NCBI GenBank assembly: GCA_028711065.1
Contig: JAQTSY010000007.1
Coordinates: 1-50,872, forward strand
Origin: Minisyncoccota bacterium
Lineage (GTDB): Bacteria; Patescibacteriota; Minisyncoccia; Phycocordibacterales; JAQTLZ01
Direction of reading: 5' to 3'
Length of the DNA: 50,872 nucleotides
This document shows, one piece after another, positions 33,468 to 50,872 of the stretch. Position 1 is the stretch's first letter, and each line of letters opens with the position of its first letter. The position numbers and the translations under genes were made by a program. Under the pieces are notes generated by a model, which had not been told where the DNA came from, searched no databases, and was given only the letters and a program-made list of their open reading frames with translations.

Positions 33468-33923
33468 ATGAATTCATCACAAAAAACCACGGTCATTGTC
33501 ATTGTTGCGATGGTAATTATTGTCGCTGCTCTTATTGGAGTTTCCGTTTTTTATTCAAAACAGCCAGGGCAGCATGATGTTTTTGCGCAGTGTCTTACTC
33601 AAAAAGGCGCAACTTTTTACGGAGCATTCTGGTGTCCTCATTGCCAGGCAACAAAGGCGCTTATTGGAAAGAGCATGAAATATGTAAATTATGTTGAATG
33701 TTCGACTCCCGATGCGAACGGCCAGACGCAAATTTGCATAGATAAAAAAATCGAAACGTATCCAACTTGGGAATTTGCTGACGGATCAAGGCTTACTGGA
33801 GAGCTCTCTCTTCAGGAACTTTCAGACAAGACTGGCTGTTCGCTCTCTGGTGGTCCTGATACCACTCCTCAAAATATCGCAACTTCTTCTACGAGTTCTG
33901 CTTCATCATCATCTGCACAATAA
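33468..33923 (+). CDS. Membrane-anchored thioredoxin-fold protein
   Basis: N-terminal TM; FYGAFWCPHC, YVEC, YPTW. Confidence 0.85.
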   Translation: MNSSQKTTVIVIVAMVIIVAALIGVSVFYSKQPGQHDVFAQCLTQKGATFYGAFWCPHCQATKALIGKSMKYVNYVECSTPDANGQTQICIDKKIETYPTWEFADGSRLTGELSLQELSDKTGCSLSGGPDTTPQNIATSSTSSASSSSAQ

Positions 33924-33924
33924 C

Positions 33925-34449
33925 ATGAGCTTTTCAGATTTCTTAACATTTGTTTTTTCGATTCTGACTCTGGTCGGGATTGTTCTTGTTGTCGTACTTC
34001 TTGTTTTTCTCACTGCCAAAAATACGAGAAATAACAAAGTATTCGCTCACCTTGATCAGTATGCGCACCACCACGTTTTTCTCGTTGTATTTCTTTCTGT
34101 TTTAGGAAGTCTTCTCTATTCAAATGTTATTGGCTTCGAACCCTGCACACTCTGCTGGATCCAGCGCATTTTTATGTATCCGATGCTCGTGCTTCTTATC
34201 GTCTCATTTGTAAGAAATGAATCGAAACTTATGCGCCCATATCTTTTGTGGCTCTCTGGGCTTGGTGGAGTGGTTGCGATCTATCAATATCTTCTCCAAT
34301 TTGGAATTGTTCCGAGCGTTGTCTGCAGTGCAACGGCAGTTTCCTGCGCGAAACTTTATGTCCTTGGTTTTGGCTTCGTGACTATTCCTCTCATGTCGCT
34401 TACGGTGTTTGCTCTTGTTTTTCTCGCGCTCCTTTTACAGAAGAAGTAA
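33925..34449 (+). CDS. Disulfide bond formation protein B (DsbB/BdbC-like)
   Basis: PCTLCWIQRIFMYP, YQY, second Cys pair CSATAVSC, GFVTIPLMSL. Confidence 0.85.
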   Translation: MSFSDFLTFVFSILTLVGIVLVVVLLVFLTAKNTRNNKVFAHLDQYAHHHVFLVVFLSVLGSLLYSNVIGFEPCTLCWIQRIFMYPMLVLLIVSFVRNESKLMRPYLLWLSGLGGVVAIYQYLLQFGIVPSVVCSATAVSCAKLYVLGFGFVTIPLMSLTVFALVFLALLLQKK

Positions 34450-40938: not shown

Positions 40939-42384
40939 ATGGAAAAAAAGTACTACACCACTGTTGGGCTTGAAGTGCATGCTGAACTCAAGACGCAGAC
41001 AAAAATGTTCTGCAATTCTAAGAACGATCCGGACGAAGAGCGCCCGAATGTGAATATCTGCCCTGTCTGTATGGGGCATCCGGGGACGCTTCCTGTCGTG
41101 AATAAAGAAGCGGTCAAACACGTTTTGAAAGTTGGTGTTGCTGTCGGCGGGGAACTCGCGGATTTCACTGAATTTGACCGTAAAAATTATTTCTATCCTG
41201 ATATTCCAAAAGGCTATCAGATTTCTCAATATAAATATCCGCTTGTTTCTGGCGGGGAACTTGCTGGGGTGAAATTGACTCGCGTGCATCTTGAAGAAGA
41301 TACGGGGACTTCAAAACACGAGGAGGGAGATTATTCACTTGTGGATTTCAATCGCGCAGGAGTGCCACTTATGGAACTTGTAACCGAACCAGTGATTCAT
41401 TCTGCTGAAGAAGCGACAAATTTCGCGAAAGAATTACAACTCCTTCTCCGCACACTTCATGCAGGTGAAGCGAATATGGAAAAAGGGGAGATGCGGGTGG
41501 AAGCAAACATTTCTGTATCGGATGATCCAGGAAAATTCGGCACGAAAGTTGAAGTGAAAAATCTCAACTCATTCCGTTCTGTTGGGCGAGCTATTGAATA
41601 CGAAGTTGAACGCCATATTCGGATGATTGAGAAGGGAGAAAAAATTGAGCAAGAAACACGTGGTTGGGACGAGACGAAAGAAACAACCTATTCGCAAAGA
41701 AAAAAAGAAGATTCGCACGATTATCGCTATTTTCCAGACCCAGATATTCCCAAACTTTGGATTTCTGAAGTCCCAGAATTCTCTCGCGAGAATTTAGCGA
41801 AAGAAATGCCTGAATTGCCGTGGATAAAGCGCGAGAAATATAAAAAATATAAACTTAAGCCTGAAGAAATCGAGGTTTCTTTACAGCATCCGACTCTCGG
41901 AGACTATATAGAGGAACTTTCTCGAGAATTTAAAGAAGATATCGAGCATGTAAGGCTTGCGGCGAACTATCTGTACTCTGATATTTTGGGAATTTTGAAA
42001 TCTGCGACTAAAGCGGGAGAGACTTTTGATTTTTCGAAATCAGAGAAGATGATAACACCGAAACAACTCGCAGAGATCACTAGAATGCTGAAATCGGGTG
42101 AAATTTCTTCTCGCGGAGCGAAAGATATCTTGGCAGTGATCATGAAAGAGGGCGGAGATCCAAAAAAGATTGCAGTCGATATGGGTTTGATACAGAAAAG
42201 CGACCCCGAAGCACTCAAAAAAATTATTGAGAAAATTATTGCCGATAATCCGAAAGCTGTTTCTGAATACAAAGCAGGCAAGCTTAATAATCTCCAATTT
42301 CTCATCGGTCAGGCGATGAAAGAGACAAAAGGCTCGGCAAATCCAGCGCTCCTCAAAGAACTTTTTGAAAAAGCTCTCGCGTAA
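40939..42384 (+). CDS. gatB: Asp/Glu-tRNA amidotransferase subunit B
   Basis: GLEVH, FDRKNYFYPDIPKGYQISQ, HLEED, NRAGVPLMEL, YRYFPDPD. Confidence 0.97.
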   Translation: MEKKYYTTVGLEVHAELKTQTKMFCNSKNDPDEERPNVNICPVCMGHPGTLPVVNKEAVKHVLKVGVAVGGELADFTEFDRKNYFYPDIPKGYQISQYKYPLVSGGELAGVKLTRVHLEEDTGTSKHEEGDYSLVDFNRAGVPLMELVTEPVIHSAEEATNFAKELQLLLRTLHAGEANMEKGEMRVEANISVSDDPGKFGTKVEVKNLNSFRSVGRAIEYEVERHIRMIEKGEKIEQETRGWDETKETTYSQRKKEDSHDYRYFPDPDIPKLWISEVPEFSRENLAKEMPELPWIKREKYKKYKLKPEEIEVSLQHPTLGDYIEELSREFKEDIEHVRLAANYLYSDILGILKSATKAGETFDFSKSEKMITPKQLAEITRMLKSGEISSRGAKDILAVIMKEGGDPKKIAVDMGLIQKSDPEALKKIIEKIIADNPKAVSEYKAGKLNNLQFLIGQAMKETKGSANPALLKELFEKALA

Positions 42385-42454
42385 GCGCGATTTCGCGTTT
42401 TCCCCAGCTCCTTTTTTCCCTCTCTGTTATACTAAATAGAGCAAGGTTTTCGTA

Positions 42455-43447
42455 ATGAAAACTATGAAGCGAATTTTTTCTCACACAAAAATCGTCGTCA
42501 GTGTTTTTTTTCTGCTCTCTTTTTTCTGCGCCGGTATTTTTCTTCCGACTCCAGGGCTTGCGATGTCCACTGAAAATTACCAGATTAACAATGACGTATT
42601 AAACGTCGGTGGAGGGTATTCCTCTTCGGATTTATATCAATTAGAAGACAGTATCGGCGATCCTCGTGAAGATATTATTATTGGAACGCATTCTATACCA
42701 GCAACTCCCACACCTCACGCACCAACTCCCACACCAAAACCAAGACGTATCGTTGTAAGGGCTGGAGGTGGCGGAGGCGGAGGAGGTGGGGGAAGATTAT
42801 CTATCCCCCCTTCATCTCTTTTGTCCAATGTTGCTTCCTCTGGTGGAGGGGGCGGTTGTGGCACCACCACTCAATCTGGCTCTTCTCCGTTTTCTCGAGT
42901 ACTTCAGGCAGGGAGTCAGGGTGCTGATGTTGTCGCTCTTCAAACATTTCTTGAAACCAAAAAGATTCTTGTTATGCCGGCGGGGACTTCGAAAGGATTT
43001 TTTGGAGGTCTGACGAAGCTTGCGTTAACACAGTATCAAAAGAGCATCGGCCTTCCTCCAGTAGGTATTTTTGGGCCACTTACAAGGGCACAAGTTGAGA
43101 AGGAATCTGTCTACGGAGGGAGTATTTCTGTTGCAATACCCTGTGTCACGCCTCTTCCTTCTATAAAATTATTTACTCGATTTATGGTTATGGGTGATAC
43201 TGGAGACGAAGTGAAGATGCTCCAAATATTTTTGAATAAACATGGGTTTCCAGTTGCTCTTTCCGGCGCCGGTTCTTTAGGAAAAGAAACTACGATTTTC
43301 GATCAGGCTACGAAAACTGCTCTCATGAAATTACAAGCGGCTCATTCGGCAGAGATTGTCGTCCCGCAAAATTTGCCGGGGCCAACAGGCATCTTTGGTG
43401 ACTATTCCAAAAAATACGCAAACGGAGTGTTGCTCAAGGGTCTCTAA
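42455..43447 (+). CDS. Secreted protein with two PG_binding_1-like domains and Pro/Gly linkers
   Basis: Signal peptide; LQAGSQGADVVALQTFL..GFFGGLTK..YQ..GIFGPLTR and MGDTGDEVKMLQIFLN; poly-Gly run. Confidence 0.85.
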   Translation: MKTMKRIFSHTKIVVSVFFLLSFFCAGIFLPTPGLAMSTENYQINNDVLNVGGGYSSSDLYQLEDSIGDPREDIIIGTHSIPATPTPHAPTPTPKPRRIVVRAGGGGGGGGGGRLSIPPSSLLSNVASSGGGGGCGTTTQSGSSPFSRVLQAGSQGADVVALQTFLETKKILVMPAGTSKGFFGGLTKLALTQYQKSIGLPPVGIFGPLTRAQVEKESVYGGSISVAIPCVTPLPSIKLFTRFMVMGDTGDEVKMLQIFLNKHGFPVALSGAGSLGKETTIFDQATKTALMKLQAAHSAEIVVPQNLPGPTGIFGDYSKKYANGVLLKGL

Positions 43448-43506
43448 AACCTAAAAAAAGAGTTATACACAGGGTTTTTTTGAAAGTTGATTTATAATTA
43501 TACCGA

Positions 43507-46500
43507 ATGAAATCAAGAACCTTTTCAAAAGCTGGTTCTCTTTTCTTAGCTTTCGCTCTTTTGGCAAAAGCGCTCCTTGACCGTATTCCTTTTTTTGGCG
43601 AGAAAGCAACTCCGCTCGCGAAAAAGGCGGATTTTCCGTTCGGGTTGGATATAAAAAATCTTCCGATTCAACAGTACACAAACACCTCTACATTTTCTGT
43701 ACGGGCTTTTCCAGAATCATCTCTTCCTCCCTCAACACTTCCTCCTTTCACCGCGAAGCTTTCCGCGCTTATCGGAAACACTTTTGAAAATATACTTTCC
43801 TTCACTGCCACTCCCGTTTACGCAACGGCGAATTTCAATAAAGAAATTAATTATCAAGCAAAGCTTCTGGATGCAAGCAGTACTCCTGTCGTGGACGGAA
43901 ATTATAATGTCCGATTCAGCCTGTACACTGCGCCTACCGGCGGCGAACCGATTTGGACAGAAAGTTGGTGCCAATCTCCTGATGGAGGGACAACGTGTGA
44001 TGGAACAGGGGATGATAATCGTGTTTCTGTTTCGGGTGGTTTATTTACGACTCGTCTCGGAAGTATTGCTTCTATCGAGAGCGTTGATTTCAATCAGGTG
44101 CTGTATCTCGGCGTTACCATTGGCGGTTCTGACACAATACCTACGTGGGATGTGGAAATGTCTCCGAGGAAAAAACTCACCGCTTCGGTCGCGTCTCTTG
44201 TGGGCGGAGGTTCAGAGCCTGGGGGGGCATGCGGTTCGTTTCAATTTAATAACAATGGCGATCTTGCTGGTGTTGGAAATTATGGAGTGTGTACTCATAG
44301 CGCTGCCATCGGTTTTTGCGCTGGCAATGGTGGCATCACAGGATTTGATAATATGGTTTTTGGTTCGAATGCCGCTGGTAACGAAGGCACATTCTCCGGA
44401 TGGAACAATGCTATTCTGGGCTCTTGCGCCGCATACTATGGCTTCACAGGTTCTTGTAACACTATCTTGGGCGCTTCAGCGGGCTTTTGCGGAGTAGCCG
44501 GATCTTGCAACTTTATTGCTGGAGTGAGAGCTTGGGGGGGAGATACAAATGGGACGACGGGATATAACAACTCTGTCATTGGTTATCAGGCTGGTTACTC
44601 TGGAGTATGTGGAAATAATAATTTTATCGGGGGTACGTCTGCTGGAGCAGGCTGGGTTTCAGGAAAGATCGGGAAAAATAGCGTAGCGATCGGTACTGAA
44701 GCCGGCTACTGCGGATTCGGCGGCGGGGGTTCTATGGGAGACAGTTTTTATTCCGGTGACAATAATGTGGCGATTGGATATCAGGCAGGTTACTACGGAG
44801 TCTTTGGCATTAACAACTCTATCCTCGGCGCCGGCGCTGGATATTGCGGAATATGTGGCAAGGGCAACACTATCATTGGCCGATACGCATGGGGTGGAGA
44901 TGAGACTGGACAAGGGGGCGGTGAAGGAAATGTGGTCATCGGAAATAAAGCTGGCTTCTGCGGGATTGATGGTTTCCACAATATCGTAGAAGGTTTTCAG
45001 GCCGGCTACTGCGGTCTCTGCGGTAATGGGAATGTTATTCTAGGAAATAAGGCATGGTCAGATGGTGCCTCAGCTGGTGGTCGAGGCAACCTTGTGTTCG
45101 GAAATCACGCAGGCACCGTTGGTGTTTGTGGCGACTATAACACGATCATCGGCCACTGCGCTGCCTATTCTGGTATCACCGGCGGAAATAACTTCATCGC
45201 TGGTACTTCCGCCGGCTATTCTGGTGTCTCTGGCCAAAACAATTTTGTCGGTGGCGCCTGTGCTGCGTATTACGGTCTTTCCGGTCAGGATAACTTTATC
45301 GGTGGTACTTGTGTGGCATTCTGTGGTCTTGGAGGTTCCAACAATATTATTAATGGTACACAGGCTTGGGCTGGCGCAAGCAACACTGTAGATGGCAGCC
45401 TCCCAAATAAGAATACTATCTCCTACCAATCTGGTACTGGTTACAGTGTGAATACAGTTTATAGCCTTGCCGATGGTAATGGTGATGCAAAAATTCTCGT
45501 TACCTCTATTGGATTTACGGGGGGCATTAATGATTTTATTGTTCTGAATGGTGGTTCAGGATATTCAGCGGACGATTACCACACTGTTATAGGGGGTGAC
45601 AATAATGCTTCGCTTAGCTTCACTCCTGTGTCTGCTTCTGCTCCCGGTGGCTCGAACATCGTACTCGGAACGCTCGCTGGCTATTGCGGACTTACCGGCG
45701 ACAGCAACACTATCCTTGGCCGGCAAGCCGCTTTTTGCGGAATCTGCGGGAGCAATAACTTTATCGGCGGAACTTCAGCGGGAGGAAATTGGGGAAGCGG
45801 AAGAGATGGTTCATTTAATACACTTATCGGATATCAGGCCGGGCTTTGCGGTCTGACAAATAGCGGATGCGAAGGTACCGCCATCGGAAATACTATTTTG
45901 GGTTATCAAGCAGTTGGGGACGGCGAAAGTGACATACAAGGTTCATACAATACGGTACTTGGAAGACAGGCCGGCTACTGCGGAGTGGGCGGATGGAATA
46001 ACTTTATTGGAGGTTCGTATGCATGGGGCGGAGATACAAGCTCGCATGTCGGTTCCGATAACGTTTCCCTTGGAACATACTCGGGATACTTCGGCGTTGG
46101 CGGATCCCAAAATATTCTCCTCGGATATCAGGCCGGCTACAATAGCGTTGACGGTTCATGGAACTCGGTCATCGGAGCGAGCGCCGGTTTTTGTGGAGTC
46201 TGCGGAGATAATAACTCGATCATGGGAACGTGTGCTGGAGGCGATTGGCAAGTCGGACGAAGAGGTTCGAACAACGTCATCATGGGAACGAATGCCGGAC
46301 TTTACGGTTTCGGTGGCGGAGCCGTGCAGGGCGAAAATGATTATAGTTTGAATTCAGGAGATCAAAACGTGGCGATCGGCGCATGCGCCGGTTACTTTGG
46401 AATTTCTGGTATCAACAACTTCGTTGGTGGTGCAGGCGCCGGCTATTGCGGAGTCTGCGGAAATGGAAATACGATTCTCGGACGCTTTGCGTGGGGAGGT

Positions 46501-49500
46501 GACGAAGCCGCACAAGGTACGGGAGGTGGGAACGTGGTTCTCGGAAATCACGCTGGTTTCTGTGGAGTGCACGGGTACGGGAATTCGATTCTCGGTTTTT
46601 GTGCGGGCTACTGCGGAGTCTGTGGTGATGGAAATTTGATACAGGGTATCGGTGCCGCTTCTGGCGGAGTAACTCATGGAGCGTACAATATTATTACCGG
46701 AGCGAGCGCAGGCTATTGTGGGATTTCCGCTTCTTACAATATTATTACTGGAAATTACGCCGGCTACTACGGAGTTTGCGGAGAGAAAAATGCCGTCATC
46801 GGGTATCAAGCCGGTTACTGCGGAGTACACGGTCAGTGGAATGTTATTCTCGGAACTTGTGCATGGCAAGACGATCGCTCTGCCCGAACCGGTATTGCAA
46901 ACTCTGTCATCGGATACCAAGCCGGTTACTGTGGAGTCTGCGGAAGCGACAACTCTCTTCTTGGTTCTCAAACAGGCAACTATGGCATTTCAGGATCAAG
47001 TAATAACATTATTGGACACGGTGCCGGCTACTGCGGAATCTGCGGAGATAACAACACTGTCATTGGTTCGGGAGCAGGCAGTGGACTTGCACTCGGGGCG
47101 AATGACAACTTCATTGGCGGAACAAACGCCGGAGGGAATTGGCAAACTGGAAAAGTTGGTTCAGCGAATACTATCTTAGGATATCAGGCGGGCTACTGCG
47201 GAACATCTGCTAGCAACAATGTTATTCTTGGAAGTTACGCTTGGGGGAATGATATACTTGGACGAAACGGCGGAGAGAACTCTGTCATTGGATATTGCGC
47301 GGGCTACTGCGGAATCTGCGGTCATAATAATTCGCTCATCGGAACCAACTCCGGCTACTGCGGAGTCAAAGGATACAACAACTTCATCGCCGGTTTATGC
47401 GCTGGCTTCTGCCAATTGTGGGGGAATGATAATACAATCATCGGCCGAGATGCGTGGGCGAATGATACACTTGGAAGTGGCGGATCTGGCAACTCTGTTA
47501 TCGGTATGTGCGCCGGCTACTGCGGAGTTTGTGGAAACGACAACCTTATTTTTGGTTCAGCTGCAGGCAATAACGGTGTTATCGGAAGCAGCAATACGAT
47601 CATGGGAAATAGTTCCGGTCAGAATGGAGTCTCTGGAAATGACAACATGATTTTTGGAAGTGGCGCTGGACACTCTGGTTTGAGCGGAAGCCAGAACGTC
47701 CTTTTGGGGTACGGAGTCGCTTTTGATGGAAATGTAAGCGGAGGTCATAACGCCGTTATTGGTTATCAAGCCGGCTACTGCGGAGTCTGCGGTGGCAGCA
47801 ACATGATCCTCGGACAGCAAGCAGCGCAAAATGGCATTTGGGGAGGATACAACTTCATCGGCGGTTCGAACGCGTGGGGAAATGATCTCTCTCAAAGTGC
47901 TTTTGGAACAAACAACGTGGTCCTCGGAAATTCTGCCGGCTATTGCGGAATTCACGGAGACTACAACGCGATCATTGGAACAAGCGCGGGTTCGTGCGGA
48001 GTCTTTGCATCTGATAACTTCATTGCGGGCGAGGGAGCATGGGCAAATGACACAACGAGTTCTGCGCATGGTGGATACAATGCAGTTCTCGGCTATCGGG
48101 CCGGCTATAACGGAGTCTCCGGGTATAACAACGCTCTTCTTGGTGCCTGTGCTGGATATTACCCGCTTACCGGTTCATGCAATACAGTGCTCGGCTTTTC
48201 GGCAGGTTACTGCGGAGTTCACGGTTCCTGCAACTTCATTGGCGGAGTGAGAGCTTGGGGAGGAGACGTAGATGGACGAAATGGTTCCAACAACGCCGTC
48301 ATCGGTTATAACGCCGGGAACAGGGGAATTTCTGGAGCAAATAATGTTATTTTGGGCTTTACCGCTGGCTACTGTGGACTCAATTCGAGCTCGAATAATA
48401 ACTTTATTGCTGGCACAGATGCATGGGCAAACGATACTCTTCAATCAGCAAGCGGAGCTGATAATATTGTGCTCGGCTCTCGCGCCGGATACAACGGTAT
48501 CCACGGGAACAGTAACTTTATCGGAGGTTGCGCGGCATGGGCAAATTCCAGCGATGTACTTTCTACCGGTTCTGACAATCTCGTGCTCGGTTCTTGCGCT
48601 GGGTACGGCGGTGTCTATGGTTCTGGCAATGCGATTCTCGGCTACGGCGCTGGAGATAATTGGGGAGTAGGACGAAGCGGTACTTGCAACATCATTATCG
48701 GAGGATACGCGGGGCAAAATGGCATCAATGGAGATTTTAATACTATCATTGGTAATAATGCAGGAAGCCAAGATGTGAACGGCGCTAACAATACCATCAT
48801 CGGTCAATCTGCCGGTACCAATAATAACGGGGGCGATAACTTTATCGGAGGCACCTATGCAGGACAAAATAATAACGGCGCGGGCAATATTATCTTTGGC
48901 TACTGTGCCGGCAGGAGTAATTCTGGCAACAGCAATGAGATGTTCGGAGCGCAAGCCGGACTTAATAATGATGGCAGTGATAACTTCATCGGGGGTTCTT
49001 TTGCTGGTCATGGCAATAACGGCGATCGAAATACTTTGCTGGGTTATTGCGCTGGGTACACTATTGCAAGCGGGGCAGATGACAACACAGTTATCGGTTC
49101 ATGCGCTTGGGCGGGTGATTCCGGGTTTCTCAATGCGGGAGTCAATAACTTAGTGCTCGGTTCTCGTGCTGGTTTTTGTGGAATTTGGGGCGCATGCAAC
49201 ACTGTCCTTGGTTATGGCGCTGGCTACAATGGCGTCTGCGGAACAAATAGTTTTATTGCTGGTACTTGTGCGTGGGGCGGAGCAGCTGGGACTTGCACCG
49301 ACGGAATGAATAATATTGTCATTGGAACCTGCGCTGGTTTCTGTGGAATGGGTGAAAATAATAACATCGCTATCGGTACCTGTGCAGGAAAAAATTCTAT
49401 CTGCGGTTCCTGCAACATTTTCCTTGGGTTTTGTGCTGGCATAGCAAATATTTACGGCTCTTCAAATACGATAATCGGAGCGAATGCGAATGCCGCAACA

Positions 49501-50872
49501 GATAATCTTGTTCGAGCGACTGCGCTCGGCGCCGATGCGATCGTGGGAGAAAATAATTCTGTTGTTATCGGCAGACTCGGCGATCATGTCGGTATCGGCA
49601 CAACTACTCCTGCCTATGCTCTCGAAGTTGCTGGGGATATTAAGATTTCTGATGATGGTTCTGGCAATCACTCGCTTATTTTCAATGATGGTTCCGCAGT
49701 TTCAAGCGCCATCGGTATTTCCGAAGGAGGTTTCGGTATTTGCTCTGATGGTGATTTGAATTTTATTGCTGGTGAAGGCGGAGTTATTAATTTTGAAACA
49801 GTGAATGGTGGTGCAACAACGACAAAACTTTTTGTAAATAATGCGGGGAATGTCGGCATCGGGGTTGGTTCGCCATCTCAAAAGCTTGATGTACTCGGCA
49901 GTATCAATATTAACGGCGGTTCTCACTTCCTTACTGACGGTGCGAACGCTCTTTCGATTCAAAATACCGACAATGTTCTCATTGGTCCGAATGCGGGCAA
50001 CTATTCCATTACGGGCGCGCGAAATGAAATTATCGGTGCTTGCGCAGCCATGGATCTTACTACGGGTACAGGAAACTTCATCGGCGGATATCAGGCGGCT
50101 CAATACAGTACAGACTCATCCAAAGAAATCGTACTCGGATATCAAGCGGGCTACTGCGGACTCTCTGGCGCTGACAACATAGCTATCGGTTCATGTGCTG
50201 GTTACGGCGGGGTCGTGGGAGGCCAGAACTCTCTCATTGGATATCGCGCTGGTTACTCTGGAATCGCAAGTGGTGCCTGCAATAACTTTATCGCTGGCAC
50301 GTACGCTTGGGGAAATAATTCCAGCGCAAATGGCGCAAACAACGTCGTTCTCGGTATTTGCGCTGGCTACGGCGGAGTATATGGAAATGCAAACTCGATC
50401 ATCGGTCAAGACGCTGGAGCAGCATGGCAAGGGGGGCGAACCGGAAGTTGTAACGTGATTCTCGGTTCTTGTTCTGGCTTCTGCGGAATTTCTGGTACCT
50501 TCAATTCTATTATTGGATATCAGGCTGGCGCTTGCGGGGTCGCAGGAAACGGTAACTTCATCGGCGGTGCTGGCGCGTGGGGAGGAGATGAAAGTAATTC
50601 AATGTATGGGGGAGATAATGTCGTCTTAGGAACAAATGCCGGCTTCTGCGGAGTCTGCGGTTCCTCAAACATTATCACTGGTACTTGCGCTGGGCATCAA
50701 GGAGTCTGCGGCGATTACAATATTATCAGTGGTACCTGTGCCGCTTATTTCGGTTCCTGTGGTTCGTACAATATTATCACCGGAGCTTCCGCTGGCTACA
50801 GCGGGGTATGCGGTAATGCCAACATTATTTCCGGCTATCAGGCTGGTGCTGCGGGAGTGGAAGGTAATGAAA
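43507..50872 (+). CDS. Giant Gly/Asn/Cys-rich beta-roll repeat (YadA-head / tail-fibre-like) surface protein, 3'-partial, >=2455 aa
   Basis: Frame 1 translated by hand from ATG 43507 to window end with no stop; INYQAKL..FSLY..GG..W.E..EMSPR N-terminal domain; >100 N-x-[IV]-[IL]-G-x-x-A-G repeats; VGIGTTTP and NVGIG motifs; TATAAT at 43493-43498. Confidence 0.93.
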   Translation, partial: MKSRTFSKAGSLFLAFALLAKALLDRIPFFGEKATPLAKKADFPFGLDIKNLPIQQYTNTSTFSVRAFPESSLPPSTLPPFTAKLSALIGNTFENILSFTATPVYATANFNKEINYQAKLLDASSTPVVDGNYNVRFSLYTAPTGGEPIWTESWCQSPDGGTTCDGTGDDNRVSVSGGLFTTRLGSIASIESVDFNQVLYLGVTIGGSDTIPTWDVEMSPRKKLTASVASLVGGGSEPGGACGSFQFNNNGDLAGVGNYGVCTHSAAIGFCAGNGGITGFDNMVFGSNAAGNEGTFSGWNNAILGSCAAYYGFTGSCNTILGASAGFCGVAGSCNFIAGVRAWGGDTNGTTGYNNSVIGYQAGYSGVCGNNNFIGGTSAGAGWVSGKIGKNSVAIGTEAGYCGFGGGGSMGDSFYSGDNNVAIGYQAGYYGVFGINNSILGAGAGYCGICGKGNTIIGRYAWGGDETGQGGGEGNVVIGNKAGFCGIDGFHNIVEGFQAGYCGLCGNGNVILGNKAWSDGASAGGRGNLVFGNHAGTVGVCGDYNTIIGHCAAYSGITGGNNFIAGTSAGYSGVSGQNNFVGGACAAYYGLSGQDNFIGGTCVAFCGLGGSNNIINGTQAWAGASNTVDGSLPNKNTISYQSGTGYSVNTVYSLADGNGDAKILVTSIGFTGGINDFIVLNGGSGYSADDYHTVIGGDNNASLSFTPVSASAPGGSNIVLGTLAGYCGLTGDSNTILGRQAAFCGICGSNNFIGGTSAGGNWGSGRDGSFNTLIGYQAGLCGLTNSGCEGTAIGNTILGYQAVGDGESDIQGSYNTVLGRQAGYCGVGGWNNFIGGSYAWGGDTSSHVGSDNVSLGTYSGYFGVGGSQNILLGYQAGYNSVDGSWNSVIGASAGFCGVCGDNNSIMGTCAGGDWQVGRRGSNNVIMGTNAGLYGFGGGAVQGENDYSLNSGDQNVAIGACAGYFGISGINNFVGGAGAGYCGVCGNGNTILGRFAWGGDEAAQGTGGGNVVLGNHAGFCGVHGYGNSILGFCAGYCGVCGDGNLIQGIGAASGGVTHGAYNIITGASAGYCGISASYNIITGNYAGYYGVCGEKNAVIGYQAGYCGVHGQWNVILGTCAWQDDRSARTGIANSVIGYQAGYCGVCGSDNSLLGSQTGNYGISGSSNNIIGHGAGYCGICGDNNTVIGSGAGSGLALGANDNFIGGTNAGGNWQTGKVGSANTILGYQAGYCGTSASNNVILGSYAWGNDILGRNGGENSVIGYCAGYCGICGHNNSLIGTNSGYCGVKGYNNFIAGLCAGFCQLWGNDNTIIGRDAWANDTLGSGGSGNSVIGMCAGYCGVCGNDNLIFGSAAGNNGVIGSSNTIMGNSSGQNGVSGNDNMIFGSGAGHSGLSGSQNVLLGYGVAFDGNVSGGHNAVIGYQAGYCGVCGGSNMILGQQAAQNGIWGGYNFIGGSNAWGNDLSQSAFGTNNVVLGNSAGYCGIHGDYNAIIGTSAGSCGVFASDNFIAGEGAWANDTTSSAHGGYNAVLGYRAGYNGVSGYNNALLGACAGYYPLTGSCNTVLGFSAGYCGVHGSCNFIGGVRAWGGDVDGRNGSNNAVIGYNAGNRGISGANNVILGFTAGYCGLNSSSNNNFIAGTDAWANDTLQSASGADNIVLGSRAGYNGIHGNSNFIGGCAAWANSSDVLSTGSDNLVLGSCAGYGGVYGSGNAILGYGAGDNWGVGRSGTCNIIIGGYAGQNGINGDFNTIIGNNAGSQDVNGANNTIIGQSAGTNNNGGDNFIGGTYAGQNNNGAGNIIFGYCAGRSNSGNSNEMFGAQAGLNNDGSDNFIGGSFAGHGNNGDRNTLLGYCAGYTIASGADDNTVIGSCAWAGDSGFLNAGVNNLVLGSRAGFCGIWGACNTVLGYGAGYNGVCGTNSFIAGTCAWGGAAGTCTDGMNNIVIGTCAGFCGMGENNNIAIGTCAGKNSICGSCNIFLGFCAGIANIYGSSNTIIGANANAATDNLVRATALGADAIVGENNSVVIGRLGDHVGIGTTTPAYALEVAGDIKISDDGSGNHSLIFNDGSAVSSAIGISEGGFGICSDGDLNFIAGEGGVINFETVNGGATTTKLFVNNAGNVGIGVGSPSQKLDVLGSININGGSHFLTDGANALSIQNTDNVLIGPNAGNYSITGARNEIIGACAAMDLTTGTGNFIGGYQAAQYSTDSSKEIVLGYQAGYCGLSGADNIAIGSCAGYGGVVGGQNSLIGYRAGYSGIASGACNNFIAGTYAWGNNSSANGANNVVLGICAGYGGVYGNANSIIGQDAGAAWQGGRTGSCNVILGSCSGFCGISGTFNSIIGYQAGACGVAGNGNFIGGAGAWGGDESNSMYGGDNVVLGTNAGFCGVCGSSNIITGTCAGHQGVCGDYNIISGTCAAYFGSCGSYNIITGASAGYSGVCGNANIISGYQAGAAGVEGNE

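What the first reader, a model, noticed from the sequence alone, without database searches (positions are those of the whole stretch)
43507..50872. Giant cysteine-laddered beta-roll protein missed by the ORF track
An open frame of >=2455 codons; the ~30 short ORFs listed here are its shadows. The ~14-aa unit N-x-[IV]-[IL]-G-x-x-A-G-[YF]-C-G-[VI]-C-G-x is YadA-head-like but carries ~95-100 Cys by hand count (~4%), many as AG[YF]CGxCG (CxxC), at positions that would stack into ladders along the solenoid. A Cys-poor, Asn-rich stretch (~48700-49020) interrupts it. Possible roles: disulfide-stiffened trimeric fibre, metal-binding or redox-active filament, or a modification substrate. Likely a host-attachment fibre. 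Large repeat proteins are known in CPR; this CxxC density is the unusual part.
Basis: partly seen in the sequence, partly recalled or inferred. Interest (0 to 1): 0.74.

Follow-up and report, generated by a model that had tools for sequence, protein, structure and literature searches.

The report
Giant cysteine-striped surface fibre of CPR bacterium
The open frame is real: it is the first half of a roughly 4,600-residue cell-surface fibre of an ultra-small (Patescibacteria) bacterium, built like the prey-grabbing fibres of Bdellovibrio and phage tail fibres, and its unusual feature is that cysteines line a few fixed positions of its 17-residue coil, for a purpose still unknown.

Summary
Window 43507..50871 (+) is one stop-free frame of 2455 codons with 98 Cys (3.99%; genome median about 0.66%). 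It runs off the contig. A 127-nt in-frame overlap, and gatB-GAPDH adjacency in two congeners, join it to another contig, giving about 4577 aa.

The repeat is 17 residues, not about 14: N-x-[IV]-[IL]-G-x-(C)-A-G-[YF]-(C)-G-[VI]-(C)-G-x-x. AlphaFold2 models a single-chain beta-solenoid with one coil per unit (pLDDT 85). In the window, 83 of 98 Cys sit at unit positions 7, 11, 14 or 17.

The Cys are not pairwise coupled. Only 13 CxxC occur, same-position runs reach 4 coils at most, and 13 Cys are isolated. An invariant-disulfide or multi-Cys metal-site design is therefore not supported.

The rest of the protein has 'VGIGTTxPxxxL' capping loops as in Bdellovibrio MAT fibres, four small inserted modules, a 7-bladed beta-propeller and a phi29-gp12-like C-terminal autochaperone. 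Neighbouring genes are housekeeping genes.

The 17-residue solenoid family is very large (6541 clusters). About 10% of close homologs have at least 2% Cys, but the CGxCG form was seen only in this genus.

Best reading: a MAT-like host-contact fibre whose exposed Cys stripes allow opportunistic disulfide cross-linking (DsbA/DsbB-like genes are present). This is a new variant of a known kind.

The parts
43507..50872 (+). N-terminal 2455 codons of giant fibre gene A, 3'-open at the contig end. It continues in frame on the reverse strand of genome contig C17 (141027-147518), giving about 4577 aa.
43507..43827 (+). aa 1-107: basic N-terminus plus hydrophobic segment (signal peptide or signal anchor), then a leader that is 52% identical to paralog B
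   Evidence: the signal/anchor assignment is inferred from the sequence
43828..44211 (+). aa 108-235: N-terminal beta-rich domain of about 130 aa (INYQ...YNVRFSLYTAPTGGEPIWTE...). It has no Pfam, NCBIfam or PHROG match.
44350..49464 (+). First block of 17-aa solenoid units (aa 282-1986), with Cys at unit positions 7, 11, 14 and 17. Includes 20-21-aa 'A-W-G-G-D' loop variants.
45394..45654 (+). aa 630-716: inserted double 'G-[ST]-G-Y' module emerging from the solenoid. It is the first of four in the whole protein.
   Evidence: weak PHROG virion-protein hit
46084..47106 (+). aa 860-1200: the segment modelled by AlphaFold2. Single-chain beta-solenoid, pLDDT 85.2, pTM 0.84.
48700..49020 (+). aa 1732-1838: Asn-rich, Cys-poor stretch of 16-aa variant units
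49465..49971 (+). aa 1987-2155: non-repeat knot with two MAT-type capping loops (VGIGTTTPAYAL at aa 2028, VGIGVGSPSQKL at aa 2116). Hits tail-fibre and tail-spike PHROGs.
49972..50871 (+). aa 2156-2455: second block of 17-aa units, the most Cys-dense part. It runs on into contig C17.
50746..50872 (+). 127-nt exact overlap with the reverse complement of the end of contig C17 (assembly k-mer join). The sequence is unique in the genome.
42455..43447 (+). 330-aa protein with two PG_binding_1 repeats. It is inserted together with gene A between gatB and GAPDH.

Best explanation
The finding is the N-terminal half of a roughly 4577-aa exported surface fibre of a Paceibacteria (Patescibacteria/CPR) cell.

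Its parts, from N to C:
- A signal peptide or anchor, then a conserved leader.
- A beta-rich domain of about 130 aa.
- About 190 coils of a 17-residue beta-solenoid. At 0.48 nm per coil this gives roughly 90 nm (inferred).
- Four small GxGY double modules and several 'VGIGTTxPxxxL' capping-loop knots that interrupt the solenoid.
- A 7-bladed beta-propeller.
- A phi29-gp12-like C-terminal autochaperone.
- A Pro/Thr-rich tail.

By analogy with Bdellovibrio MAT fibres and phage tail fibres, it is probably a homotrimer folded with the help of the C-terminal chaperone. It probably projects from the cell to contact a host or another surface, with the propeller and inserted modules as binding parts (inferred).

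The cysteines occupy the variable positions of the coil, which are probably solvent- or interface-facing. They form three to four discontinuous stripes.

I think the stripes most likely serve opportunistic, non-site-specific disulfide cross-linking, within a fibre, between its chains or between fibres. The cell's DsbA/DsbB-like pair would make these links, and they would toughen the fibre (inferred).

Shown: the ORF, the repeat, Cys positioning, the solenoid model, the domain content, the chromosomal context and the family size. Inferred: trimer state, orientation, host binding and the redox state of the Cys.
For: ORF and composition:
- Searches confirm the frame and its composition.

Join to contig C17:
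- The 127-nt overlap is in frame.
- gatB and GAPDH, which flank the two contig ends, are direct neighbours in two same-genus genomes.
- A 4875-codon ortholog of paralog B is intact on one contig of a congener and has 3.4% Cys.

Repeat and fold:
- The unit is 17 aa, with Cys confined to positions 7, 11, 14 and 17.
- The AF2 solenoid has pLDDT 85.2 and strands at unit positions 2-4 and 13-16.
- It resembles predicted fibres of phages and giant viruses (BFVD, 15 hits at E<1e-3).

Fibre kinship:
- A profile of the C-terminal region hits the Bdellovibrio MAT fibre Bd2133 (8ond, E 3e-8) through the capping loop. The motif and family are described in PMC10769870.
- There are six capping loops.
- The beta-propeller has a Pfam Lactonase hit at E 2e-33.
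- The C-terminal fold matches the phi29 gp12 autochaperone (3gqh_A, E 2.6e-4, TMt 0.57). PF11962 is precomputed in two homologs.
- Paralog B carries S74.

Cellular, not viral:
- Neighbours are gatB, obg, GAPDH and rpiB.

Cysteines:
- Cys exchange with N, S, Y, A, G and T, that is polar or small residues. This fits exposed positions.
- DsbB-like and DsbA-like genes with CxxC motifs are present.
- Cys-rich homologs occur in oxic surface-ocean samples, where free thiols would not persist.
- 12 columns of the super-repeat keep Cys in 50-82% of 17 paralogous segments.
Against:
- Trimer state and Cys-Cys distances are untested, because no coordinates are returned.
- No pairing signal between Cys positions.
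- 13 of 98 window Cys have no other Cys within 21 residues, and half of the local clusters are odd-sized. Many Cys therefore cannot be in local disulfides.
- Between orthologs, Cys are conserved no better than average: 51% against 59% overall. That alignment is unreliable in the repeats.
- DsbB is present in 17 of 41 relatives, most of which lack such a fibre, so it is no specific partner.
- Homology of the N-terminal domain to the MAT N-domain was not shown.
- The C-terminal model is weak overall (pLDDT 58).
Confidence: 0.6

Rival explanations
1. Same fibre, but the Cys stripes are kept as free thiols or thiolates. They would act chemically. They might bind soft metals or iron-sulfide surfaces. 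They might capture host surface proteins by thiol-disulfide exchange. They might act as a sacrificial redox shield.
For: - Cys sit at probably exposed positions, and His shares positions 7 and 14.
- CGxCG and five CxxxCxxC motifs occur.
- Single, unpaired Cys are common.
- The two fibres hold about 14% of all Cys in ORFs of at least 200 aa.
- Own knowledge: most CPR bacteria live in anoxic settings, where thiols persist.
Against: - No complete multi-ligand site recurs, and occupancy is statistical.
- No CxxCH motif.
- Cys-rich relatives occur in oxic surface seawater.
- DsbA/DsbB-like oxidases are present.
- No metal-handling or maturation genes lie next to the gene.
Confidence: 0.15
2. Same fibre, but the Cys have no dedicated role. 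They would be tolerated occupants of the variable coil positions, fixed by drift or lineage-specific bias, and structurally equivalent to the Ser, Asn, Ala or Tyr found there in relatives.
For: - In Cys-poor homologs the same positions hold S, N, A, T and Y.
- Cys content in the family varies continuously from 0 to 5.5%.
- No pairing is seen.
- Cys conservation between orthologs is average.
Against: - Cys content is kept at 3.4-4% in paralogs A and B and in the congener's ortholog, despite only 59% identity.
- 12 super-repeat columns keep Cys in 50-82% of segments.
- Cys is about six times the genome median.
- High Cys recurs in a minority of homologs (27 of 262 with at least 2%).
Confidence: 0.2
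3. The gene belongs to a prophage or other mobile element and encodes a virion tail fibre rather than a cellular surface fibre.
For: - PHROG tail-fibre and virion hits.
- Structural matches only to viral predicted proteins.
- Gene A plus one neighbour form a roughly 15-kb strain-specific insertion.
Against: - No phage genes flank it. It sits between gatB and GAPDH, with only a peptidoglycan-binding protein as companion.
- Paralog B is syntenic and intact in a congener.
- It has an N-terminal export signal.
- Its length of 4577 aa and its C-terminal module are shared by hundreds of Patescibacteria chromosomal proteins.
Confidence: 0.03
4. Assembly artefact: the long frame or its continuation is a chimera of collapsed repeats.
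For: - The contig breaks inside the gene.
- A second paralog is broken in the same way.
Against: - No DNA repeats of 31 nt or more occur in the window ORF, and there is no tandem DNA repeat.
- The frame is open for 2455 codons.
- The overlap is unique and in frame.
- Synteny of the flanks in two congeners supports the join.
- An intact 4875-codon ortholog of B exists.
Confidence: 0.02

Closest known systems
Bdellovibrio bacteriovorus MAT (mosaic adhesive trimer) fibres, e.g. Bd2133, Bd1334, Bd3182 (PMC10769870; PDB 8ond, 8ojn, 8oml, 8ol4)
   Same: - Exported long fibre of a bacterium that lives on other cells.
- Repeated capping-loop motif V-G-[GN]-x-x-x-P-x-x-x-L.
- S74 (paralog B) or non-S74 (this protein) C-terminal end.
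- Exchangeable tip domains.
- A beta-rich domain of about 130 aa after the signal peptide.
   Different: - Four to five times longer.
- The shaft is a 17-residue single-chain solenoid that has no solved counterpart.
- Carries Cys stripes.
- Has a beta-propeller head and a gp12-type chaperone.
- Homology of the N-domain was not shown.
- The host is a monoderm-like CPR cell.
Phage phi29 pre-neck appendage (tailspike) gp12 and its C-terminal autochaperone (PDB 3gqh, 3suc; MEROPS/Pfam Peptidase_G2, PF11962)
   Same: - The C-terminal module has the same fold by Foldseek (E 2.6e-4).
- A weak profile hit falls at the same place.
- The module sits at the end of a beta-helical fibre, as in gp12.
   Different: - No Pfam PF11962 hit for this protein.
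- Cleavage is untested.
- The module is followed here by a Pro/Thr-rich tail.
- The passenger is a different solenoid.
Disulfide-laddered beta-helical antifreeze proteins (Tenebrio molitor AFP, spruce budworm AFP; own knowledge; see also PMC13080227)
   Same: Short-period beta-solenoid with Cys at fixed positions of each coil.
   Different: - In the AFPs, every coil has an invariant Cys pair forming an internal disulfide.
- Here occupancy is 24-62% in canonical units (20-31% over all window units).
- The Cys are unpaired and probably on exposed positions.
- There is no ice-binding Thr array.
YadA-like heads of trimeric autotransporter adhesins (Hep_Hag, PF05658)
   Same: - N-x-[IV]-x-G-x-x-A type motif.
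- Two short strands per coil.
- Adhesin role.
- Some homologs carry PF05658.
   Different: - 17-residue rather than 14-residue period.
- No PF05658 hit.
- No beta-barrel anchor.
- The organism has no outer membrane (own knowledge of CPR).
Giant extracellular beta-solenoid proteins of Apilactobacillus kunkeei (Giant1-5, PMC12863079)
   Same: Surface proteins of 3000-8000 aa in a small genome, largely beta-solenoid, taking up several percent of the genome.
   Different: No sequence relationship was shown. I took only the title and abstract from that paper.

Membership tests
MAT fibre family (Caulton et al. 2024, PMC10769870) | Capping-loop motif V-G-G/N-pi-x-x-P-x-x-x-L on beta-helix edges | tested here: met
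   Six copies in the joined protein, two of them in the window (aa 2028 and 2116). A profile containing the motif hits Bd2133 (8ond) at E 3.3e-8 and three other MAT entries.
MAT fibre family (Caulton et al. 2024, PMC10769870) | [quoted passage not shown] | tested here: inconclusive
   An N-terminal hydrophobic segment and a domain of about 130 aa (aa 108-235) are present. A homolog search found only 8 relatives and no named Bdellovibrio protein. No direct comparison with a MAT N-domain was possible.
MAT fibre family (Caulton et al. 2024, PMC10769870) | C-terminal S74 chaperone-protease, or an alternative tip (NS74 subgroup) | tested here: met
   No S74 in this protein, so it is the NS74 type, with a propeller and a gp12-like module. 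Paralog B has PF13884 at E 7e-10.
MAT fibre family (Caulton et al. 2024, PMC10769870) | Homotrimeric fibre | not testable with these tools
   Only monomer AF2 without coordinates is available. The monomer folds confidently as its own solenoid.
Trimeric autotransporter adhesin / YadA head (PF05658, PF03895) | 14-residue Hep_Hag repeats and a C-terminal YadA beta-barrel anchor | tested here: not met
   The period is 17. There are no Pfam hits to PF05658 or PF03895 in either half.
Peptidase_S74 tail-fibre proteins (PF13884) | S74 intramolecular chaperone domain with the SDxxxK motif | tested here: not met
   Absent from both halves of this protein. Present in paralog B (SDISYKEN).
Peptidase_G2 / phi29 gp12 autochaperone (PF11962) | Sequence match to PF11962 and the gp12 C-terminal fold | tested here: inconclusive
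   No Pfam hit even at E<=10. Profile hit to 3gqh at only E 0.28. Foldseek hit to 3gqh_A at E 2.6e-4 and TMt 0.57, on a model with pLDDT 58 overall and a core of 70-90. PF11962 is precomputed on 2 homologs.
Disulfide-laddered beta-helix (TmAFP type) | An invariant Cys pair in every coil | tested here: not met
   Of 92 canonical units, 17 have no Cys and 37 have one. There is no co-occurrence between positions. Either Cys of a CGxCG is lost alone in 18 of 48 cases.
Multihaem c-type cytochrome | CxxCH haem-binding motifs | tested here: not met
   0 CxxCH in A and B.
Chlorovirus glycoprotein repeat (Pfam family; own knowledge of the name) | Pfam match to the repeat | tested here: not met
   No Pfam hit at E<=1. 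There is only structural likeness to BFVD models, one of them labelled 'Chlorovirus glyco repeat domain-containing'.

The most novel reading that the evidence does not exclude
The Cys stripes would make this a chemically active fibre, a roughly 90-nm solenoid displaying some 160 surface thiols per chain. The episymbiont would use it to latch covalently onto host envelope proteins by thiol-disulfide exchange, or to bind metals or iron-sulfide. This would be a contact mechanism not described for any bacterial adhesin of this kind. The genus-specific CGxCG (thioredoxin-like CGxC) turns would be the reactive sites.
Probability: 0.1. Interest if true: 0.8.

Novelty: new variant of a known kind. Interest (0 to 1): 0.48.

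Why it matters
How ultra-small CPR bacteria recognise and hold on to their hosts is largely unknown. This genome of under 1 Mb spends about 3% of its DNA on two such fibres. The two fibres hold about 14% of the cysteines counted in long ORFs.

The work links them to the experimentally studied Bdellovibrio MAT fibres and to phage fibre chaperones. It defines a 17-residue solenoid that has thousands of relatives and no solved structure. It also singles out a Cys-striped, CGxCG-bearing form that can be tested directly for disulfide cross-linking, metal binding or thiol reactivity.

If the Cys prove functional, this would be a new way of hardening or arming a bacterial surface fibre. If not, it remains a good structural target for a very common unannotated repeat.

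Tried and rejected
- **Family and sequence searches on the window protein.** Pfam, NCBIfam and PDB sequence searches gave nothing.
- **Foldseek of the solenoid model against PDB.** Only generic beta-helices, best E 0.019.
- **Cys-Cys distances.** Structure prediction returns no coordinates and no file appears in /data. The trimer and ladder geometry therefore could not be measured.
- **Disulfide pairing by co-occurrence.** Not significant within units, between adjacent units, or within conserved CGxCG coils. The same test on Cys-rich homologs gave only weak associations, inflated by duplicate sequences.
- **DsbB as a specific partner.** Rejected. It is present in 17 of 41 relatives, whereas only 6 of the 41 have any match to the repeat region at E<=1e-3. 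VKOR is absent.
- **Haem or Fe-S wire idea.** No CxxCH. Only 5 CxxxCxxC motifs, with no maturation genes nearby.
- **Shared partner gene for the two fibres.** The 330-aa upstream gene and the 328-aa gene next to paralog B are unrelated.
- **MAT N-domain homology.** Not shown.
- **Literature.** Nothing found on Cys-rich CPR fibres or on this repeat.
Full report
**1. Observation**

The window is the whole of contig C4 of a 974-kb, 31-contig genome. Earlier notes place the genome in Paceibacteria (CPR). A protein on a 256,608-base contig, the same length as contig C1 of congener G002, is named 'Candidatus Pacebacteria'.

From 43507 an ATG-started frame runs 2455 codons to the last base without a stop. 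It has 98 Cys (3.99%), 22% Gly and 10.6% Asn. ORFs of at least 200 aa in this genome have a median of 0.66% Cys. The other ORFs in the interval lie in other frames of the same DNA.

TRF finds no DNA tandem repeat. No exact DNA repeat of 31 nt or more lies in the window ORF. The protein repeats are therefore old and diverged, not an assembly collapse.

**2. The gene is longer than the window**

The last 127 nt of C4 are identical to the reverse complement of the end of contig C17, in frame. That 127-mer occurs nowhere else in the genome. C17 continues the frame for 2164 codons, so the joined protein has 4577 aa and 164 Cys.

There is independent support for the join. gatB lies two genes upstream of the fibre gene in the window, and GAPDH lies directly downstream of it on C17. 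In two same-genus genomes these two genes are direct neighbours. The 330-aa peptidoglycan-binding gene plus gene A therefore form a strain-specific insertion of about 15 kb.

A paralog, B, is about 4780 aa with 163 Cys. It is broken in the same way between contigs C24 and C9. Its ortholog is intact as one 4875-codon frame in congener G002, with 3.4% Cys.

**3. The repeat**

Spacing between N-x-[IVL]-x-G anchors is 17 in most cases. The consensus is N-x-[IV]-[IL]-G-x-(C)-A-G-[YF]-(C)-G-[VI]-(C)-G-x-x. There is also a 20-21-aa variant with A-W-G-G-D plus a loop, and a 16-aa Asn-rich variant at aa 1732-1838.

In 92 canonical units, all 119 Cys lie at four positions:

| Unit position | Cys count |
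|---|---|
| 7 | 22 |
| 11 | 57 |
| 14 | 33 |
| 17 | 7 |

In the window part, 83 of 98 Cys lie at these offsets.

AlphaFold2 was run on aa 860-1200 with 16 paralogous segments as alignment. It gives a single-chain solenoid (pLDDT 85.2, pTM 0.84). Strands fall at unit positions 2-4 and 13-16, with exactly one coil per unit.

No solved structure resembles it beyond generic beta-helices. Fifteen predicted viral proteins do: a Bodo saltans virus 'FhaB-like' protein, chlorovirus proteins, a Prochlorococcus phage protein and a Tenacibaculum phage 'Chlorovirus glyco repeat' protein.

**4. Are the Cys a ladder of disulfides or metal sites?**

The evidence is mostly negative.

- *Motif counts.* Only 13 CxxC occur in the window. 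Same-position runs reach 3-4 coils at most.
- *Co-occurrence.* Cys at positions 7, 11, 14 and 17 show no significant co-occurrence within a unit or between adjacent units.
- *Unit patterns.* 24 units have C11 only, 17 have none, 17 have C11+C14, and 5 have all three.
- *Isolated Cys.* 13 of the 98 window Cys have no other Cys within 21 residues. 22 of 38 local clusters are odd-sized.
- *Super-repeat conservation.* Across the 17 aligned paralogous segments, 12 columns keep Cys in 50-82% of segments. CGxCG belongs to particular coils of a super-repeat of about 340 aa. Even there one Cys is missing alone in 18 of 48 cases (OR 2.5, p 0.15).
- *Ortholog comparison.* Between the B orthologs of two species (59% identity), Cys are conserved at 51%. 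They exchange with N, S, Y, A, F, G and T. This alignment is unreliable inside the repeats.

The Cys are thus positionally constrained and their density is maintained (3.4-4% in A, B and the ortholog). But they are neither obligate pairs nor complete metal sites. There are no CxxCH motifs.

The positions concerned are the variable, mostly polar positions of the family repeat. From the strand pattern, position 14 alternates with the core-facing [VI]13. I therefore infer that they are exposed or at an interface.

**5. The rest of the protein and its kin**

The N-terminus has a basic and hydrophobic start and a 107-aa leader shared with B (52% identity). A beta-rich domain of about 130 aa follows, with no family match.

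The solenoid (aa 282-3620) is interrupted by four G-[ST]-G-Y double modules. A 170-aa knot carrying two 'VGIGTTxPxxxL' motifs also interrupts it. That knot hits phage tail-fibre PHROGs.

On C17 a 7-bladed beta-propeller follows (Pfam Lactonase E 2e-33, LVIVD). After it come more such motifs, then a module of about 290 aa (DLAERYP...LGIVSTKPG...ALSGRVPVKV...) and a Pro/Thr-rich tail.

That module is attached to many different passenger domains in hundreds of Patescibacteria proteins. A profile of it hits the Bdellovibrio MAT fibres through the capping loop (Bd2133 8ond, E 3e-8) and, weakly, phi29 gp12. Its AF2 model is weak overall (pLDDT 58, core 70-90). The model matches the phi29 gp12 C-terminal autochaperone (3gqh_A, E 2.6e-4, TMt 0.57) and trimeric phage decoration proteins.

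Paralog B has a true Peptidase_S74 in front of the same module.

The MAT paper describes exactly this logic: signal peptide, N-domain of about 130 aa, long trimeric fibre, capping loops, S74 or non-S74 ends, and variable adhesive tips used for prey recognition. Notes from other windows of this scan reached similar readings for other CPR fibres. I reached mine before reading them.

**6. Family size and how unusual the Cys are**

The repeat region has 6541 representative clusters at E<=1e-3 and 1411 at E<=1e-10. Named relatives come from Elusimicrobia, Patescibacteria, Alphaproteobacteria, Bacteroidota and others. Many are called 'tail fiber domain-containing protein' and carry S74.

The family consensus is N-x-F-x-G-x-x-A-G-x-x-N-T-T-G-x-x. 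Of the 262 closest proteins, 27 have at least 2% Cys and 12 have at least 3%, up to 5.5%. Their Cys lie at the variable positions 6, 7, 10, 11, 16 and 17.

Some of these relatives come from Tara Oceans surface samples in the <0.22 µm fraction. That is oxic water, where exposed thiols would be oxidised.

The G12/[YF]-C-G-[VI]-C-G form is different. It has 12 CGxCG in the window protein and none in any other of the 262. It also occurs in paralog B and its ortholog in the congener G002. Among 40 relatives of the same order, only the congener G002 has a close match.

**7. Mechanism**

I read the protein as a MAT-like, probably trimeric, host- or surface-contact fibre about 90 nm long. It would be folded from the C-terminal chaperone end and held at the cell by its N-terminus. 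The propeller and inserted modules would be the binding parts.

For the Cys, the best-supported reading is opportunistic disulfide cross-linking at exposed stripes. A DsbB-like gene lies in the window (33775-34449, CTLC). A DsbA-like gene (CPFC) lies on C17. These are not specific to fibre-bearing genomes.

The rivals are free-thiol chemistry (metal binding or thiol exchange) and near-neutral occupancy of tolerant positions. Prophage origin and assembly artefact are unlikely.

**8. Verdict**

- This is a new variant of a known kind of system. The kind is MAT / phage-fibre-like giant surface fibres of CPR bacteria. The variant is Cys-striped and CGxCG-bearing, and seen only in this genus.
- Interest is moderate. 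The repeat family is huge and structurally unsolved, and the Cys question is directly testable. No evidence yet points to new chemistry.

Noticed in passing
window 33775-34449 (+): DsbB/BdbC-like membrane protein (PF02600, E 6e-11) with CTLC and a second Cys pair. Its likely partner, a DsbA-like protein with CPFC, lies at G000:C17:49135-50079. No VKOR is present. Own knowledge: CPR bacteria usually lack quinone synthesis, so how this DsbB is re-oxidised is an open point.
   Followed up: partly
window 40939-43447 and G000:C17:139912-140976: gatB and GAPDH are direct neighbours in two same-genus genomes. Here the 330-aa PG_binding_1 gene plus the giant gene (about 15 kb) lie between them, so this is a strain-specific insertion or a loss in the others.
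   Followed up: partly
G000:C24:1-1557 (-) joined to G000:C9:30639-43604 (-); loci L003, L002: Paralog B is about 4780 aa with 163 Cys, also split at a 127-nt overlap. It has Peptidase_S74 followed by the same gp12-like C-terminal module, that is two intramolecular chaperones in tandem. An intact ortholog lies at G002:C3:23648-38272.
   Followed up: partly
L001 6349-7233 (-) = joined protein aa 4176-4470: The C-terminal module (DLAE[NR]YP, LGIVSTKPG, ALSGRVPVKV, final LC[VI]xDxC) is fused to very many different passenger domains across Patescibacteria classes. Passengers include Ig-like DUF5011, Kelch, FG-GAP, NosD, GH28, LVIVD and S74. It looks like a general fibre-maturation or sorting module.
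   Followed up: partly
homologs P0079, P0054, P0012: Cys-rich homologs of the 17-aa solenoid occur on 15-39-kb contigs and in Tara Oceans surface samples, two of them from <0.22 µm and 0.1-0.22 µm size fractions. They could belong to viruses or to ultra-small cells. In these homologs, Cys at the same position of adjacent coils is avoided.
   Followed up: no
window 45394-45654 and three further copies on C17: A module of 75-90 aa made of two G-[ST]-G-Y...GG(D/N)xxA half-units is inserted in the solenoid four times. It is a possible ligand-binding insert and has no family match.
   Followed up: no
window 43448-43506: The 59-bp spacer before the ATG is AT-rich, with TTGAAA and TATAAT-like hexamers very close to the start and no obvious Shine-Dalgarno sequence. 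The mRNA may have a very short leader.
   Followed up: no
   Followed up: no
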